From NCBI RefSeq assembly GCF_988242995.1, contig NZ_OZ547043.1: 64,000 bases of DNA, one strand, 5' to 3'. Each line of letters starts with the position of its first letter. Position 1 is the first letter of the stretch. The position numbers are program-made. Below, piece after piece: positions 30,001-36,000 of this stretch.

Positions 30001-33000
30001 TGGAAGTAGTCATTGGGGACCTTGTTGGTTTTGTGTTTAACAATATTTATACAAGCACAGCTTTACAGGGGAGACAATGGAAAATTTTTCAGCAAGGGAA
30101 AATTGAGGGGTTGATCACGTTTTGTACTGTACTGCAGGTAACAAAAAACCCCGCCGGAGCGAGGTTTCGTCAGCCGCCCGCGGCTGGTAACCGCAAAGCA
30201 CACTGTATTATGTCAACACAGAAAGTATACGTGTTCCGCGCAGAACGCGCAATTTCGGCACGAATTTTGACGTAATTAGTGCATAGTTGAGTATCGATCA
30301 CAGTTTGCGTTTTGTCCAAACATTACTGTTTATTCATACAGTAAACTTCTATAATATCACTGTACGCAATGTGTTATGCGGGGGCCGCATCGTTACCCGG
30401 CGCACTAAGTCCTGGCTGAAACGGGTGGTGCCGTCAGCGCCTTAACCCCGCGTGAGCACACTGTGTTATGTCAACGAGCACAACGTTTCTCCTTGAGATA
30501 CCGCGTGCACAACAGCTGGCAACAGGCAGCGGAAAGGTACGTCAGCTGGCAGTGCTCCTGAACCACAGGAGACGCGTATGAGCCTGGTGGATATCGCCAT
30601 TCTTATCCTCAAACTCATTGTTGCAGCACTGCAACTGCTTGATGCTGTTCTGAAATACCTGAAGTAATTCAGATTCAAGTCGCACCAAAGGGGAGCGGGT
30701 AACCGCTCCCCTTTCATATTTAGCGTGCGGGTTGGTGTCGGATGCGATGCTGATGCATCTTATCCGCCCTACCATCCCTCCCGGCAACATTTATTGCCGC
30801 TTTTGTTTACATATTCTGCCGCTAAACAATTCCCCATTCCTGGCGTATATCTGGCTAACATTTATCAATGTGATAGATTCCTCTCCCGCATTTATGGGAA
30901 TGCGTAGTGACTTATTCTAATTATTTTTATAAAAGCATCCGTGATAATGAAAAGGCATAGAAACGTCAATTTGTTATTGATGTTGGTATTACTCGTGGCC
31001 GTCGGTCAGATGGCGCAAACCATTTATATTCCAGCTATTGCCGATATGGCGCGCGATCTCAACGTCCGTGAAGGGGCGGTGCAGAGCGTAATGGGCGCTT
31101 ATCTGCTGACTTACGGTGTCTCACAGCTGTTTTATGGCCCGATTTCCGACCGTGTGGGTCGCCGACCGGTGATCCTCGTCGGAATGTCCATTTTTATGCT
31201 GGCAACGCTGGTCGCGGTCACGACCTCCAGTTTGACAGTATTGATTGCCGCCAGCGCGATGCAGGGGATGGGCACCGGCGTTGGCGGCGTAATGGCGCGT
31301 ACTTTGCCGCGTGATTTATATGAACGGACACAATTGCGCCATGCTAATAGCCTGTTAAACATGGGAATTCTTGTCAGTCCGTTGCTCGCACCGCTAATCG
31401 GCGGTCTGCTGGATACGATGTGGAACTGGCGCGCCTGTTATCTCTTTTTGTTGGTACTTTGTGCCGGTGTGACCTTCAGTATGGCCCGCTGGATGCCGGA
31501 AACGCGTCCGGTCGACGCACCGCGCACGCGCCTGCTTACCAGTTATAAAACGCTTTTCGGTAACAGCGGTTTTAACTGTTATTTGCTGATGCTGATTGGC
31601 GGTCTGGCCGGGATTGCCGCCTTTGAAGCCTGCTCCGGCGTGCTGATGGGCGCGGTGTTAGGGCTGAGCAGTATGACGGTCAGTATTTTGTTTATTCTGC
31701 CGATTCCGGCGGCATTTTTTGGGGCATGGTTTGCCGGACGTCCCAATAAACGCTTCTCAACGTTGATGTGGCAGTCGGTTATCTGCTGCCTGCTGGCTGG
31801 CTTGCTGATGTGGATCCCCGACTGGTTTGGCGTGATGAATGTCTGGACGCTGCTCGTTCCCGCCGCGCTATTCTTTTTCGGTGCCGGGATGCTGTTTCCG
31901 CTGGCGACCAGCGGCGCGATGGAGCCGTTCCCTTTCCTGGCGGGCACGGCTGGCGCGCTGGTCGGCGGTCTACAAAACATTGGTTCCGGCGTGCTGGCGT
32001 CGCTCTCTGCGATGTTGCCGCAAACCGGTCAGGGCAGCCTGGGGTTGTTGATGACCTTAATGGGATTGTTGATCGTGCTGTGCTGGCTACCGCTGGCGAC
32101 GCGGATGTCGCATCAGGGGCAGCCCGTTTAAGCTCACGTCACCGCAGCATCGTCATCAGCTCCATGGGAGAACGATGCTGCTTTATCAGATCACGCATCA
32201 CCCGCATATGCGGCGCGGAGCAAGAATAAAACGCCTGATAGCCCGCACAAAGCACGTTGTCTGGCGTCTCCTCCCGAGCGTGCGGGCACAGCCGATGCCA
32301 GTCGCACGCCTGGCAGCCACGGCGCGGTTGCGGGTTTTCGCTGCCACACCATTTTTGTAGGGTGGAGTCAAAAAGCTCAATCGAGATACGACTGATATCT
32401 GCCCGTACCCAACACTCGAACAGGGCAATTAAAAATTTCCCCCACAGCTCTGCTGTCACCGAAGCGGCCGTCAGATCGCCCCGGTCATCAAATTCAAGAT
32501 GGGGAATAAGCTGTACGGAGCGGATGCCCCGCTGTTTGAAATTGTGATAAAAATCGGCAGGTTGCAGAGCATCCTTATACTCTACAACCAGTTTATGCCT
32601 GTCCTCTTCAGCATCAATGACCTGACTTCCTGTCATGCGACTCTCTCAATAAATACGATAAGTTGATGTATATGCGTTACAGCAAACAGTATTGCGAGAG
32701 ATAACACCGCGAGGGAGATCAAAAATTTGTCACGGACTACGTGAAATTGGGAAAAATCGCTATTCGTGACATCCATTAAATTGCGATTACGGGTGTAGTG
32801 CCAGAGGATCAGCGCCACGATGGCGAGGATGCCAATCGAAATCCAGAATAACATGCCCGCCTGGTGCCAGTTGTGTTTGATAGCCAACGCCATCAACGCG
32901 CCGTAGCCCAGCATGGTACGAAACCACGCCAGTGATGTACGCTCCGGCTGCAGTCCTGGGTCGGCAATGCGTCTGGCTTTGCGGCTATCCGGCATACAAC

Positions 33001-36000
33001 ACCAGTCCCATAACGATCACCGCCACGATCATCAATATTAAGCTGATGATTAATAAGCTGTTGGTATAGGGCAGGTCCTCTTTCAGACGCATCGCTTTTT
33101 CATTGCGTAACCAGCGCAAGTAGCCATACATCGCTAACCCGCCGGAAAACAGACACAACAACAACGCCAGCAGTTCGCGAATGACGGGCGTGGCGAAATC
33201 TGGCGCAAGTTGGTCAAGCCCAACCCCCGCCGCCAGAAATCCTAGTGCGGTACGGATCCACGCCAGAAAAGTACGCTCATTAGCCAGCGAGAAGCGGTAA
33301 TCGGGCGCTTCTCCGAGGCGGGAAATTTTCATTGTTGCTCCTTGTAAACTGTTCCTCGCCGAAAAAGTAGGCCAGGAACAGCAATAATGCATCAGAACTT
33401 CTGTTTTTTCTCTTCCACCTTCACCCCTTGTGTCGGTAGGCCGGTGTCATAGTCGCGTACCACTGGCGAATAGCCATCTTGTGGGCGTGGACGAAACGCC
33501 CCCATCCAGCGAGGTCGTGCATCTTTACGCCACGGACGCAGGCTCCATTGATAACTGCGGAACGGATCGCGAATTTTGTCCATGTAATCCAATAAGGCGT
33601 CATGCATTTTGCGGCGAACGTCGGCAAAACGGATATCATCGATCAGGTTATGCATTTCATTTGGGTCATTACGGCGATCGTAAAGTTCATCACTGGTGAA
33701 GAGGTTGAGTACCAGTTTAAAGTCATCCGTCACCCAGCAACGCACCGGAATAAAACCGCCAAAGCTGTCATGCTCAATCTCGTAGCGGTTAAATTCCACC
33801 ATCACGCCGCGTGGCTCTGTCACGGCAAGGATATTTTCCCCCGGCAGAATCTCTGGTTTTTCAATATCTGCCAGCGCCATCATTGTCGGCAGTAAATCGA
33901 TATGACTGACTGGCGTATCGACCTGTCGCCGCTCCCCTTGCGGCGAACGGATGATCAGCGGAATACGGGTGATGTCGTCATACATCGCCGCTCCTTTACT
34001 GATCAGCTTATGTGCGCCCATCATTTCGCCGTGATCGGAGGTATAAATAACCCACGTATTTTCACGTTGCTCTGGCGTTAAGGCATTGATGACCCGTCCG
34101 ATTTGGTCATCAACAAAGTCATTGCAGGCAAAATAGAGCGGATGGTGATAAAGCCCGTCATCACCGACTGGCGATGGCATCGCCTGCGCCCATAAGCGGT
34201 GATGTTCCGGTTTGTTCGCCAGGTCATCCTGTGATTTCTCGCCAAGTTCGTAGTAAAAATCAGCGTATTTCTCTAAATACTCCACCGGACAGGTGAACGG
34301 GTGATGCGGCTCATCATACGAAACCACCATCAGGAAGGGTTCCTCGGCGCGCGCGGGCTGTTGCAGAAAATCTACCGCCCGATTGCTGATGCGGTGCGCC
34401 CAGGTGAAGGTTTCGTCAATATGGTTCGCCTGTAAATCTTCGACGCTGTTTAGGCCATTGCGCCACAGGCTGATCTCTTTTTCCGTCAGTTCGCTAAGAT
34501 AGTTCGCCCCATCGAACCAGTAATCAGCGTCCCACTCCGGCGGACACTCGCCAGTGCCGAAATAGTCATGACCGTCGAGATGCCATTTGCCAATGTAACA
34601 GGTGTGATAGCCCGCATCCTTAAAGTAGCGTCCCATAGTGGAGATGTTTTTGCCCGGCGCGACGTTATTGGTCCACGGGCCGGACTGGTTAGCGTAGATA
34701 CCGGTAAACAGCCCGGCGCGCGCTGGTGTACAAACCGGTGAACAGGTGTAGGCGGAATTAAAGCGAATACTTTCCGCCGCCAGACTATCAATATTTTGCG
34801 TATTCAGCGGTTTACCGCTATAGCAACCGACCATATTGGTGGCCTGGGTATCGGTCATGATGAACAGAAAATTGGGGCGTTTCATAGGCTATCCTTCGCG
34901 TCGGGAGTAAAGGTTACGGCTGGGTCGTGACGATGCCGCCAGCTGTCAAAAATCAGGTAGACAATCACTACGGCGGCAATGAAATAACTGATCATCGCTA
35001 ACCAGCGCGTACCGTAGCCGCCGAATTCAGCCAGCCCGGCATAGACGCCAATCATCGCGAACAGGATACCAATTGACGCGATCTTGACGTTTTTCCACGG
35101 TTTCATGTCCACCGCAAACGCATCGTTGAAGGTGAACGGCGTGGCGCGCGGTTTGATAAAACCGATCACCAGCATCACGACCACGTTGATGCAGAACGTA
35201 CAGGCCAGCACATAGAGGAAATGGAAGTCGAACTTCACCAGATAGTTGATGGTGATGTAGCTGATTATGCCAATCCCCATCGCCACTTTTGCCGCCAGCG
35301 CCGGAATGCGCGGGAAGAAAAAGCCCATAATGATGATGGTAACCAGCGGCACGTTGTAAATACCGTTGAGCTGTTTCATCCAGCTATATAGCCCCTGCGG
35401 CGCGTTGGCGATCCACGGCGCGACCAGCACCGAAACGATAGCGATAAAGAAACCAAATTTGCGCCCGACGGTGACCAGCTGCTGCGGCTCGGCATTCTGG
35501 TTAATGATGCGCCGGTAAATACCCATACTGAATAACGTACTGGCGCTATTCAGAAAGCCGTTGAAGGTACTGATCACCGCACCAAATAACACCGCGCCGA
35601 AGAAACCCACCAGTGGCACTGGCAGAACGTTATTGACCAGCGTCGGGTAGGCCATGTCGGCTTTAGGTAAATCCTGATACAGATGAAACGCAATCAACCC
35701 TGGCAGCACCAGTACCAGCGGGTCGAGCATTTTCAGCACCGCCGTTAACAGCGCCCCCTTTTGCCCTTCCGCCAGGCTTTTTGACGCCAGTGTGCGTTGC
35801 ACGATGCCCTGATTTGTACACCAGTAAAAGGTGTTCACCAGAATCAAACCGGTAAATGCCGCGCCAATCGGCAAGGGATCGGTCGGGCCGCCGACTGAGT
35901 TTAATTTCTCGGCGTGAACGGTGGTGAGTTGCTCAATGCCCTGCATAAAGCTGCCCTTGCCCATCGCGATCAGGCCAAATATCGGCACCATCAACCCGCC

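What the first reader, a model, noticed from the sequence alone, without database searches (positions are those of the whole stretch)
32139..34885. Sulfatase yidJ adjacent to an orphan SPASM-only maturase fragment (yidF)
Seen in sequence: yidJ has the Cys-type sulfatase motif (CTPAR), which needs formylglycine maturation. yidF encodes only a Cys-rich C-terminal (SPASM-like) portion, and the radical-SAM CxxxCxxC core is absent, with no room upstream because yidG overlaps by 4 bp. Inference: either a decayed maturase or a minimal accessory factor. This matches the K-12 arrangement as far as I recall, so it is not strain-novel.
Basis: partly seen in the sequence, partly recalled or inferred. Interest (0 to 1): 0.3.

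Follow-up and report, generated by a model that had tools for sequence, protein, structure and literature searches.

The report
Shrunken sulfatase maturase kept by selection
Beside a sulfatase gene, E. coli carries a maturase gene (yidF) that lost its whole catalytic core through in-frame internal deletions, yet it is still conserved as a small protein in many enteric bacteria, so it is a known gene best read as a catalytically dead relative under selection, not a working maturase and not plain junk.

Summary
The locus is the E. coli emrD | yidF-yidG-yidH-yidJ-yidK | yidL region. The observation largely holds. YidJ is a leaderless Cys-type sulfatase (CTPAR, aa 52-56). YidF (165 aa) has no CX3CX2C motif, and its ATG overlaps the yidG stop by 4 bp.

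Three points need correcting:
- YidF is not "SPASM-only". Pfam finds neither Radical_SAM nor SPASM in it.
- It is not N-terminally truncated. Full-length 370-aa orthologues in Citrobacter, Atlantibacter, Kosakonia and others use the same start and the same overlap. E. coli YidF keeps their residues 1-9, 152-241 and 301-370. It lost 10-151 (radical-SAM cluster and core) and 242-300 (the auxiliary-cluster-I half of SPASM) in frame.
- K-12 carries an extra gene, yidI, that this window lacks.

The "decayed maturase" reading is not supported as plain decay. Short forms of 160-178 aa stay open across at least eight genera. Their dN/dS is 0.06-0.35, against 0.08-0.13 for the same codons in full-length enzymes. 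yidF is present in 5420 of 5426 complete E. coli genomes. The four cysteines matching auxiliary cluster II are retained.

YidF cannot perform radical-SAM formylglycine formation, and its retained role is unknown. It always travels with yidH and yidG, often without the sulfatase. This is a known gene with modest novelty.

The parts
32139..32636 (-). yidF, 165 aa: in-frame-deleted, non-catalytic derivative of the operon's anaerobic sulfatase-maturating enzyme
   Evidence: ORF. RefSeq annotates it as yidF 'radical SAM protein'. TIGR03942 scores 75 bits against a cutoff of 349. No Pfam Radical_SAM or SPASM hit. The AF2 model best matches anSMEcpe.
32610..32636 (-). YidF aa 1-9 (MTGSQVIDA): remnant of the ancestral N-terminus, matching full-length residues 1-9. 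Deletion junction 1 follows; full-length 10-151, including Cys15/19/22, is missing.
   Evidence: Deletion map against the C. braakii 370-aa orthologue. Full-length orthologues begin MTGCQVMAKPASSRCNLDCRYC.
32340..32609 (-). YidF aa 10-99: the last beta/alpha units of the radical-SAM barrel plus the bridge helices (full-length 152-241; anSMEcpe about 175-246). Deletion junction 2 follows; full-length 242-300, with the Aux I cysteines 246/252/267, is missing.
   Evidence: AF2 pLDDT is 86-96 over this stretch.
32142..32339 (-). YidF aa 100-165: the C-terminal part of the ancestral enzyme (full-length 301-370, minus 4 residues inside CX2CX5CX3C)
32247..32315 (-). Cysteine set C108-X2-C111-X5-C117 ... 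C130. It is positionally equivalent to the auxiliary-cluster-II ligands of anSMEcpe (C317, C320, C326, C348).
   Evidence: C108, C111 and C130 are invariant and C117 is at least 90% conserved in 62 sequences. Cys table. anSMEcpe ligand lists are from PMC5715301. Actual cluster binding was not tested.
32142..32219 (-). C-terminal tail aa 140-165 (SAPHMRVMRDLIKQHRSPMELMTMLR), the most conserved segment of the family
   Evidence: Invariant columns P142, M144-L150 and R155-P157. Tail dN is 0-0.06 with dS 0.1-0.7. AslB has a homologous tail, PPYLKAMADLLAHGRPASDIM.
32633..32636 (-). ATGA overlap of the yidG stop and the yidF start (translational-coupling arrangement), identical in full-length orthologues
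   Evidence: A GAGAGAG Shine-Dalgarno-like run ends 4 nt upstream of the ATG.
32633..32995 (-). yidG, 120 aa, DUF202 inner-membrane protein
   Evidence: Pfam PF02656 E 7e-12. It lies directly upstream of yidF in all 63 species loci. dN/dS 0.03-0.14.
32985..33332 (-). yidH, 115 aa, DUF202 inner-membrane protein. The mechanical ORF runs on to 33392; the annotated start is 33332.
   Evidence: Pfam PF02656 E 8e-19. Annotation. phmmer against the yeast Vtc1 transmembrane domain gives E 0.002. dN/dS 0-0.1.
33333..33391 (.). 59-bp yidJ-yidH spacer, the site where K-12 and 68% of complete E. coli genomes carry yidI on the opposite strand
33392..34885 (-). yidJ, 497 aa, cytoplasmic Cys-type sulfatase
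   Evidence: PF00884 E 2.8e-71 from residue 4, plus SGSH_C. dN/dS 0.03-0.08.
34718..34732 (-). CTPAR formylglycine motif of YidJ (aa 52-56, within CTPARAGLFTG)
34882..36597 (-). yidK, 571 aa, sodium:solute symporter. Its stop overlaps the yidJ start by 4 bp.
   Evidence: PF00474 E 3e-50. Coordinates.
36764..37657 (+). yidL, divergently transcribed AraC-family regulator of the cluster
   Evidence: Annotation. Present wherever yidK and yidJ are present.

Best explanation
yidF is the leftover of the cluster's own anaerobic sulfatase-maturating enzyme (anSME). The ancestral enterobacterial cluster was yidL | yidK (importer) - yidJ (cytoplasmic Cys-type sulfatase) - yidH - yidG (two DUF202 membrane proteins) - yidF (a 370-aa radical-SAM/SPASM maturase).

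In the Escherichia lineage two in-frame internal deletions, plus a 4-residue one, removed three things: the SAM-binding [4Fe-4S] motif, most of the barrel, and the auxiliary-cluster-I half of the SPASM domain. The original start codon, the 4-bp coupling to yidG and the original stop were kept.

Shown here:
- The 165-aa product lacks every element needed to generate a 5'-deoxyadenosyl radical, so it cannot itself convert Cys52 of YidJ to formylglycine.
- It is nevertheless kept as a protein under purifying selection, only about 1.5-2 times more relaxed than the same region in intact enzymes.
- It is always found with yidH-yidG, whether or not the sulfatase is present.

Inferred:
- It is a pseudoenzyme that keeps a sub-function already carried by the C-terminal module of the full enzyme. 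Most likely it is a small cytoplasmic protein that may hold a single Aux-II-type Fe-S (or metal) site and acts with, or for, the YidH/YidG membrane pair.
- If YidJ is matured in E. coli, this must be done in trans, by AslB or YdeM, or by the unidentified system reported for aslB ydeM mutants.
For: Descent and anatomy:
- NCBIfam anSME models match at E 5.7e-21 but far below cutoff.
- phmmer against anSMEcpe gives two blocks, 27-95 to 175-246 and 104-147 to 313-365.
- The AF2 model has pLDDT 82 and pTM 0.80, and its top PDB matches are all anSMEcpe (E 1e-5, TMq 0.66).
- The deletion map against the 370-aa orthologue keeps 1-9, 152-241, 301-317 and 322-370.
- Full-length orthologues occupy the same operon position with the same ATGA overlap.

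Loss of catalysis:
- No Radical_SAM or SPASM Pfam hit, although the full-length control hits both.
- Cys15/19/22 and Cys246/252/267 are absent.

Selection:
- Short forms occur in Escherichia, Citrobacter, Salmonella, Klebsiella, Raoultella, Superficieibacter, Silvania and Leclercia.
- dN/dS is 0.06-0.35, with 95% bootstrap upper bounds of 0.79 or less.
- On the roughly 155 shared codons the median is 0.16, 0.20 and 0.095 in short forms against 0.08-0.13 in full-length forms.
- The annotated frame has the lowest dN/dS of the six frames, and neutral ORF survival is 1.4% at d=0.35.
- The gene is present at full length in 5420 of 5426 complete E. coli genomes, and 40 of 40 sampled are annotated as CDS.

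Recurrence:
- The N-terminal deletion boundaries differ between lineages, and intermediates of 192, 220, 249, 350 and 360 aa exist.
- Short Leclercia is sister to full-length Leclercia at 76% identity.

Cysteines: C108, C111 and C130 are invariant and C117 is at least 90% conserved. This set equals the Aux II ligand set (PMC5715301).

Linkage to yidH-yidG: the three genes are contiguous and co-oriented in all 63 species loci, with or without yidJ.
Against: - There is no direct evidence that the protein is made, or of what it does.
- A fused-chain AF2 run of YidH-YidG-YidF with paired orthologues gave pTM 0.39, so it gives no support for a complex.
- The fourth Cys is not fixed: the C. freundii group has Tyr at the C326-equivalent position.
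- The AF2 Cys loop has low confidence, pLDDT 51-62.
- The gene can be lost. It is frameshifted in E. albertii NBRC 107761 and Leclercia NCTC13032. It is absent next to yidH-yidG in Erwinia rhapontici. It was disrupted in a laboratory-evolved E. coli line (PMC12363166).
- YidF evolves several times faster than YidH, YidG or YidJ: about 50% identity between E. coli and Citrobacter, against 94-97%, 83% and about 90%.
Confidence: 0.7

Rival explanations
1. Plain pseudogene: yidF is a dead fragment of a maturase, still annotated as a CDS only because no stop codon has yet arisen. It has no function.
For: - The catalytic core is gone.
- It evolves much faster than its neighbours.
- Occasional frameshifted copies exist (L020, L064), and many low-count frameshift-like variants appear in the protein database.
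- It was dispensable in a laboratory-evolved strain.
Against: - The frame is open from the ancestral start to the ancestral stop in about 33 of 35 short-form species, at 40-50% amino-acid identity.
- dN/dS is 0.06-0.35 and bootstraps exclude 1.
- All indels between genera are in frame.
- Neutral simulation gives 1.4% ORF survival at d=0.35 and 0.08% at d=1.
- The gene is present and complete in 99.9% of complete E. coli genomes.
Confidence: 0.07
2. Minimal accessory factor for YidJ maturation: the short YidF no longer does the chemistry but still serves sulfatase maturation. It might hold the CTPAR segment of unfolded YidJ, or relay electrons through an Aux-II-type cluster to another maturase (AslB or YdeM).
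For: - It sits in the sulfatase cluster in Escherichia, S. arizonae, K. oxytoca, K. spallanzanii and Superficieibacter.
- It retains the surface-exposed Aux II ligand set, which in anSMEcpe is proposed to carry electrons to the protein surface.
Against: - Seventeen of 27 scorable short-form species loci have no yidJ at all, yet keep the short gene under similar constraint: the C. freundii group, S. enterica, K. pneumoniae, Raoultella and Silvania.
- The form of yidF (full or short) is not significantly associated with yidJ presence: 14/10 against 10/17, counting L059 as yidJ-positive. Fisher's test run with L059 on the negative side (9/18) gave p about 0.1, and the data are not phylogenetically independent.
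- In anSMEcpe the substrate peptide is held in the barrel, which is missing here. This last point is inference from the structure papers and was not tested.
Confidence: 0.12
3. D-amino-acid tolerance module: yidH-yidG-yidF act together in D-serine or D-alanine handling (efflux or tolerance), unrelated to sulfatases. YidF would be a reduced cytoplasmic subunit or regulator.
For: - In 42 of 60 species loci dsdA lies convergent 0-59 bp from the yidF stop, followed by dsdX and dsdC.
- YidH passed three rounds, and YidG one round, of an overexpression screen for D-alanine exporters (PMC10299036).
- yidF mRNA appears in the RIL-seq interactome of GcvB, the small-RNA regulator of amino-acid metabolism (PMC9299463).
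Against: - Convergent neighbours are not co-transcribed, so this adjacency may be mere synteny, and it is absent in Escherichia itself.
- YidH did not lower intracellular D-alanine in the direct transport assay.
- The D-serine statement is second-hand, and the primary source could not be read.
- Overexpression phenotypes are often promiscuous.
Confidence: 0.1
4. Transcriptional regulator, as in some older annotations ('predicted transcriptional regulator').
For: An array table labels b3674 in this way (PMC2848244).
Against: No DNA-binding domain appears in Pfam or NCBIfam. The fold and the homology are those of an anSME fragment.
Confidence: 0.02

Closest known systems
Full-length YidF orthologues (370-374 aa radical-SAM/SPASM maturases) in Citrobacter braakii/werkmanii/amalonaticus/rodentium, Enterobacter, Atlantibacter, Kosakonia, Trabulsiella, Pseudocitrobacter, Kluyvera and Yokenella
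   Same: Same operon slot after yidH-yidG. Same ATG overlapping the yidG stop. Same first residues (MTGxQ). Same C-terminal tail and Aux II cysteines. 47-49% identity over the shared region.
   Different: They keep CX3CX2C (Cys15/19/22), the whole barrel and the Aux I cysteines (246/252/267/322), and they hit Pfam Radical_SAM and SPASM. E. coli YidF lacks all of these.
anSMEcpe of Clostridium perfringens (PDB 4K36-4K39), the structurally defined anaerobic sulfatase-maturating enzyme
   Same: It is the best structural match of the YidF model (Foldseek E 1e-5, TMq 0.64-0.66). Sequence blocks align to residues 175-246 and 313-365. The ligand positions C317/C320/C326/C348 are matched by C108/C111/C117/C130.
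   Different: YidF has nothing corresponding to residues 1 to about 170 or about 247-312. This means no SAM cluster, no Aux I and no complete substrate barrel. Identity is only 17%.
E. coli AslB and YdeM (paralogous putative anSMEs next to the sulfatases AslA and YdeN)
   Same: Same enzyme family. AslB shares the C-terminal tail motif P-x-[ML]-[KR]-x-M-x-D-L...R-x-x-x-[ED]-[LI]-M. Each lies next to a sulfatase gene.
   Different: AslB is 411 aa with all three cluster motifs. There are no DUF202 genes at the aslB locus. The closest non-yid relative found (P0237, a sulfatase plus anSME between mog and dnaK) also lacks DUF202 genes.
Twitch-domain radical-SAM enzymes (for example BtrN and MoaA), the known 'half-SPASM' variants. 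The comparison rests on my own knowledge of Grell, Goldman & Drennan 2015.
   Same: A reduced auxiliary-cluster domain with a single potential cluster site.
   Different: Twitch domains keep the N-terminal half of SPASM (the Aux-I-like site) and sit on an intact, active radical-SAM core. YidF keeps the C-terminal (Aux II) half and has no core. It is therefore not a Twitch enzyme.
Pseudoenzymes (catalytically dead homologues retained under selection)
   Same: Descent from an enzyme, loss of all catalytic determinants, and continued purifying selection.
   Different: Most described pseudoenzymes keep the full fold with point substitutions. Here about 55% of the chain was excised in frame, apparently more than once in related lineages.

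Membership tests
Anaerobic sulfatase-maturating enzyme (anSME; TIGR03942 / radical-SAM SPASM subfamily) | CX3CX2C motif binding the SAM-cleaving [4Fe-4S] cluster | tested here: not met
   No such motif occurs in the 165 aa. The aligned region (full-length 10-151, Cys15/19/22) is deleted.
Anaerobic sulfatase-maturating enzyme (anSME; TIGR03942 / radical-SAM SPASM subfamily) | Radical_SAM (PF04055) partial TIM-barrel domain | tested here: not met
   No hit at E<=1. The full-length orthologue used as control scores 71.7 bits over residues 12-173. YidF keeps only the equivalents of 152-173.
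Anaerobic sulfatase-maturating enzyme (anSME; TIGR03942 / radical-SAM SPASM subfamily) | SPASM domain (PF13186) with the seven/eight-Cys motif binding two auxiliary [4Fe-4S] clusters | tested here: not met
   No PF13186 hit, whereas the control scores 37.6 bits at 254-312. The Aux I cysteines 246/252/267 are deleted. Only the set equivalent to Aux II remains.
Anaerobic sulfatase-maturating enzyme (anSME; TIGR03942 / radical-SAM SPASM subfamily) | Score above the curated equivalog cutoff | tested here: not met
   TIGR03942 scores 75 bits against 349.45. NF010308 scores 71.9 against 484.
Anaerobic sulfatase-maturating enzyme (anSME; TIGR03942 / radical-SAM SPASM subfamily) | Common descent with anSMEs, and a position next to a C/S-x-P-x-R sulfatase gene | tested here: met
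   E 5.7e-21 to TIGR03942. Orthologous position to full-length maturases. YidJ CTPAR.
Anaerobic sulfatase-maturating enzyme (anSME; TIGR03942 / radical-SAM SPASM subfamily) | Formylglycine-generating activity on the cognate sulfatase | not testable with these tools
   This needs a biochemical or genetic assay. Sequence predicts no activity.
Pseudogene | Disrupted reading frame, or neutral evolution (dN/dS about 1), with sporadic retention | tested here: not met
   The frame is intact in about 33 of 35 short-form species and in E. coli generally. dN/dS is 0.06-0.35. Neutral simulation.
Pseudoenzyme (dead homologue retained under selection) | Descent from an enzyme, loss of catalytic determinants, and purifying selection on the remaining protein | tested here: met
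   (descent). (loss). (selection).
Pseudoenzyme (dead homologue retained under selection) | A demonstrated non-catalytic function | not testable with these tools
   Only indirect leads exist: linkage to yidH-yidG and second-hand overexpression phenotypes. The fused-chain AF2 run was uninformative.
Type I (formylglycine-dependent) sulfatase, Cys-type (YidJ) | Sulfatase fold (PF00884) with the C-x-P-x-R-x4-T-G signature near the N-terminus | tested here: met
   PF00884 E 2.8e-71 over residues 4-341. CTPARAGLFTG at residues 52-62.
Type I (formylglycine-dependent) sulfatase, Cys-type (YidJ) | Actual formylglycine modification and sulfatase activity | not testable with these tools
   No experimental characterisation was found. 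The literature calls it 'putative sulfatase/phosphatase'.
DUF202 / VTC-type three-helix membrane domain (YidG, YidH) | PF02656 match above the gathering score | tested here: met
   YidG 46 bits and YidH 68.3 bits against a cutoff of 23.4. YidH matches the Vtc1 chains 9umg, 8i6v and 7ytj at E 0.002-0.004.

The most novel reading that the evidence does not exclude
yidH-yidG-yidF may be a self-standing three-gene module whose job is not sulfatase maturation. In this reading a VTC-like (DUF202) membrane pair works with a miniaturised, single-cluster Fe-S protein carved repeatedly and in frame out of a radical-SAM maturase. The module might act in D-serine or D-alanine (or anion) export or tolerance next to the dsd locus. 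This would be a documented case of a radical-SAM enzyme recurrently reduced to its Aux-II/C-terminal module and given a new, non-catalytic role.
Probability: 0.12. Interest if true: 0.6.

Novelty: new variant of a known kind. Interest (0 to 1): 0.33.

Why it matters
For annotation: 'radical SAM protein', the current RefSeq name, and the older 'YidJ-maturating enzyme' both overstate what E. coli YidF can do. Genome-scale models should not credit it with formylglycine formation. YidJ must be matured by another system, which bears on the long-open question of how E. coli matures Cys-type sulfatases.

For evolution: the locus offers a graded natural series within one bacterial family, running 370 -> 360 -> 350 -> 249 -> 220 -> 192 -> 165 aa. 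It shows a radical-SAM/SPASM enzyme being cut down in frame to a conserved module of about 135 residues that stays under selection. This makes the function of the Aux II/C-terminal module, and of the uncharacterised DUF202 pair YidG/YidH, experimentally approachable.

The stakes are modest. This is an uncharacterised accessory locus, not a new kind of system.

Tried and rejected
- Literature search on yidF: 29 hits, mostly unrelated acronyms or a typo for YdiF. No functional study was found. The paper on aslB ydeM mutants appears only in reference lists.
- Literature search on DUF202: the hits in the top paper were DUF2023, DUF2027 and similar.
- The presumed primary source for the D-serine overexpression phenotype could not be retrieved.
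- Fused-chain AF2 of YidH-linker-YidG-linker-YidF with 29 paired orthologues gave pTM 0.39 and pLDDT 60.9. This is no evidence for or against a complex, because the stoichiometry and the linkers are artificial and only one run without a control was possible.
- A search for DUF202 + anSME linkage outside the yid locus did not succeed. The closest representative outside the family (P0237) sits in a different sulfatase cluster with no DUF202 genes, and P0236 is another enterobacterial yid-locus copy.
- The test of 'short form goes with loss of the sulfatase' was not significant. Counts were 14/10 against 10/17 (L059 counted as yidJ-positive); Fisher's test was run with L059 on the negative side, 9/18.
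- The promoter and terminator scan of 31900-37000 found nothing above the shuffled expectation.
- No remnant of the missing radical-SAM core was found elsewhere in the 64-kb window by tblastn.
- Selection on an antisense frame was rejected as the cause of the constraint, because the annotated frame has the lowest dN/dS.

Full report
WHAT IS THERE

The window is E. coli. It is 95-99% identical to 5420 of 5426 complete genomes, with a best match of 99.0%. The finding covers four genes on the minus strand:
- yidF, 32139-32636
- yidG, 32633-32995
- yidH, 32985-33332
- yidJ, 33392-34885

Three neighbours frame them: emrD converges on yidF, ending 7 bp from its stop. yidK (34882-36597) lies upstream of yidJ. 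The AraC-type regulator yidL (36764-37657) is divergently transcribed.

Gene junctions are tight. yidK and yidJ overlap by 4 bp, yidH and yidG by 11 bp, and yidG and yidF by 4 bp (ATGA). A 59-bp spacer separates yidJ from yidH.

CHECK OF THE OBSERVATION

YidJ is a sulfatase. Pfam PF00884 matches at E 2.8e-71 starting at residue 4, so there is no signal peptide. The Cys-type signature CTPARAGLFTG sits at residues 52-62.

YidF has no CX3CX2C motif and no Radical_SAM hit. The stated refutation test, a full radical-SAM domain inside yidF, is negative. The 370-aa C. braakii orthologue serves as positive control and hits Radical_SAM (12-173, 71.7 bits) and SPASM (254-312, 37.6 bits).

The 4-bp overlap with yidG is real.

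Three details are wrong:
- YidF is not SPASM-only. Pfam SPASM fails on it, and almost all of the Pfam-defined SPASM segment is among the residues that are missing. More than half of YidF (aa 10-99) corresponds to the end of the radical-SAM barrel and the bridge helices: TIGR03942 positions 160-245 and anSMEcpe 175-246.
- The loss is not an N-terminal truncation (see the next section).
- K-12 is not identical. It carries yidI on the other strand between yidH and yidJ. The window lacks yidI, as do about 31% of complete E. coli genomes; 3717 of 5426 have it.

ANATOMY AGAINST FULL-LENGTH ORTHOLOGUES

A scan of one genome per species returned 63 loci, all Enterobacteriaceae. Every one has yidH-yidG-yidF in this order.

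In about half of them the third gene is a 369-374-aa protein beginning MTGC[HQ]VMAKPASSRCNLxCRYC. That is a complete radical-SAM/SPASM maturase whose ATG overlaps the yidG stop exactly as in E. coli.

Mapped on the C. braakii protein, E. coli YidF keeps residues 1-9, 152-241, 301-317 and 322-370. The missing parts are:
- residues 10-151, which hold Cys15/19/22 of the SAM cluster and most of the barrel
- residues 242-300, which hold Cys246/252/267, three of the four Aux I ligands
- four residues inside CX2CX5CX3C

What remains of the cysteine motif is C108-X2-C111-X5-C117 and C130. These occupy the positions of the four Aux II ligands of anSMEcpe: C317, C320, C326 and C348. The ligand lists come from PMC5715301 and the alignment.

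C108, C111 and C130 are invariant, and C117 is at least 90% conserved, across 62 short and long sequences.

The most conserved segment is the C-terminal tail APHMRVMRDL..HRSP.ELM. AslB has a homologous tail.

DISTRIBUTION AND HISTORY

Short forms of 160-178 aa occur in:
- Escherichia (coli, marmotae, albertii, whittamii and cryptic clades)
- the C. freundii group
- Salmonella (enterica, arizonae, diarizonae)
- Klebsiella and Raoultella
- Superficieibacter and Silvania
- one Leclercia

Intermediate forms also exist:
- 192 aa, still carrying CX3CX2C but nothing behind it
- 220 aa and 249 aa
- 350 aa, with part of SPASM missing
- 360 aa, with CX3CX2C broken

The N-terminal deletion boundaries differ between lineages: 10-151, 19-147, 8-154 and 25-150. 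In a neighbour-joining tree of the 155 shared columns, short Leclercia is sister to full-length Leclercia at 76% identity. It is not grouped with the other short forms, to which it is 44-51% identical.

The reduction therefore happened more than once. Each time it kept the frame, the start, a core of about 135 residues and the tail.

Both states occur inside the C. freundii complex, for example C. youngae ATCC 29220 against CCUG 30791.

SELECTION

- Pairwise Nei-Gojobori dN/dS for short forms is 0.11-0.33 in Escherichia, 0.08-0.31 in Citrobacter and 0.06-0.39 in the Klebsiella group.
- In twelve bootstrapped pairs, none of the 95% intervals reaches 1. This holds even when the last 30 codons are removed.
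- On the same roughly 155 shared codons, short forms have median dN/dS of 0.16, 0.20 and 0.095. Full-length enzymes have 0.08-0.13. The relaxation is therefore only about 1.5-2-fold.
- The annotated frame has the lowest dN/dS of the six frames.
- Under neutral substitution alone, a 165-codon ORF survives d=0.35 per site in 1.4% of simulations. Yet about 33 of 35 short-form species keep it open.
- In E. coli the gene is present at full length in 5420 of 5426 complete genomes and is annotated as a CDS in 40 of 40 sampled.
- Losses do occur. The gene is frameshifted in E. albertii NBRC 107761 and Leclercia NCTC13032 and absent beside yidH-yidG in Erwinia rhapontici.

STRUCTURE

AlphaFold2 on the 62-sequence alignment gives a confident compact model, with pLDDT 82 and pTM 0.80. 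Confidence is low only at residues 1-10 and in the cysteine loop 101-129.

Its only significant PDB matches are the anSMEcpe chains (E about 1e-5, TMq 0.61-0.66).

CONTEXT

The unit that always stays together is yidH-yidG-yidF. The sulfatase genes yidJ, yidK and yidL are present in only part of the loci.

Whether yidF is full-length or short is not significantly tied to yidJ. Counts are 14 with and 10 without for full-length, against 10 with and 17 without for short. L059, where the fetched locus ends inside yidJ, is counted as yidJ-positive. Fisher's test was run with L059 on the negative side (9/18) and gave p about 0.1.

YidG and YidH are DUF202 proteins under strong constraint. YidH matches the transmembrane domain of yeast Vtc1 at E 0.002.

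In 42 of 60 species loci the D-serine genes dsdA-dsdX-dsdC follow yidF convergently within 0-59 bp. Escherichia has emrD at that position instead.

The literature offers only leads:
- An EcoCyc-derived line says YidF overexpression raises D-serine resistance (PMC12363166).
- YidH and YidG emerged as candidates in a D-alanine exporter screen, but YidH failed the direct transport assay (PMC10299036).
- yidF mRNA is in the GcvB RIL-seq interactome (PMC9299463).

MECHANISM

Shown:
- YidF descends from the cluster's own maturase.
- It has lost every determinant of radical-SAM chemistry.
- It is nevertheless maintained as a protein.

Inferred:
- It is a pseudoenzyme that keeps a sub-function of the enzyme's C-terminal module. 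It may hold a single Aux-II-type metal site, and it most plausibly acts with the translationally coupled YidH/YidG pair.
- YidJ's formylglycine must be made in trans. From established knowledge, type I sulfatases require formylglycine. E. coli also encodes AslB and YdeM. A further, unidentified system was reported for aslB ydeM mutants; that paper is known to me and was seen here only as a cited title.

I could not support a physical YidF-YidGH complex. A fused-chain AF2 run gave pTM 0.39.

COMPARISON WITH KNOWN FAMILIES, AND NOVELTY

YidF works like nothing that has been catalytically characterised. By descent it belongs to the anSME lineage, but it fails every defining feature of that family that could be tested: the CX3CX2C motif, the Radical_SAM domain, the SPASM domain and the equivalog cutoff. 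It should therefore not be filed as an anSME.

It is not a Twitch-type half-SPASM enzyme either. It keeps the opposite (C-terminal) half of the SPASM domain and has no radical-SAM core.

It fits the concept of a pseudoenzyme. The unusual twist is that more than half of the chain was excised in frame, repeatedly within one bacterial family.

What this analysis adds:
- the internal-deletion anatomy
- the graded series of intermediates
- the evidence for purifying selection
- the tighter linkage to yidH-yidG than to the sulfatase

Interest is scored at 0.33.

Noticed in passing
window 33333-33391 (yidJ-yidH spacer); L002 3916-4365: K-12 has yidI (149-aa membrane protein, opposite strand) between yidH and yidJ, and the window does not. 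yidI is present in 3717 of 5426 complete E. coli genomes. It is also present in C. rodentium, S. arizonae and other Escherichia, so it is an old, variably retained gene.
   Followed up: partly
L003 8544-12389 and 41 other species loci; absent from the window: In most Enterobacteriaceae the D-serine locus dsdA-dsdX-dsdC lies convergent 0-59 bp from the yidF stop. In Escherichia emrD sits 7 bp from the stop instead. Second-hand reports of YidF (D-serine) and YidH/YidG (D-alanine) overexpression phenotypes make this a lead worth testing.
   Followed up: partly
window 32633-33332 (yidG, yidH): The two DUF202 proteins are far more conserved than yidF (dN/dS 0-0.14). YidH aligns to the transmembrane domain of yeast Vtc1, the polyphosphate channel subunit, at E 0.002. 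Their function in bacteria is unknown.
   Followed up: partly
L008 (E. coli E69) 8305-9498: The yidH-yidG-yidF segment of this E. coli strain is highly divergent from the window (dS 0.4-0.85), while the adjacent yidJ is close (dS 0.11). This suggests a recombination import from another Escherichia lineage.
   Followed up: no
L020 (E. albertii NBRC 107761) 2784-4745: yidJ and yidK are deleted, leaving only the 3' end of yidL, and yidF is frameshifted, while yidH and yidG stay intact (98-100% identical to E. coli).
   Followed up: no
L074 (Erwinia rhapontici) 4664-6781: yidH-yidG are present with no trace of yidF. An IS-family transposase gene lies just downstream, suggesting IS-mediated loss.
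   Followed up: no
L018 vs L066 (C. youngae CCUG 30791 vs ATCC 29220) and other C. freundii-complex loci: Two alternative states coexist within one species complex: the full sulfatase cluster with a 370-aa maturase, or the yidH-yidG-yidF trio alone with a 176-aa short form. This implies allelic replacement or long-lived polymorphism.
   Followed up: no
window 32985-33392: The mechanical ORF for yidH extends 20 codons upstream to an ATG at 33392 that abuts the yidJ stop (135 aa). RefSeq starts it at 33332 (115 aa, MKISRLGEAPDYRF), which is the start conserved in all orthologues.
   Followed up: partly
window about 29915-30865: By transfer from the 99%-identical KE55 annotation, the ilvB leader ivbL (29915-30013, minus strand), the type I toxin gene tisB (30578-30667, plus strand) and ysdE (30791-30865, minus strand) lie just upstream of emrD.
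   Followed up: no
L076 5001-6092; L042 8503-9585: Some near-full-length copies (363 and 360 aa) have already lost the Radical_SAM Pfam signal or one Cys of CX3CX2C. These look like early stages of the same reduction.
   Followed up: partly
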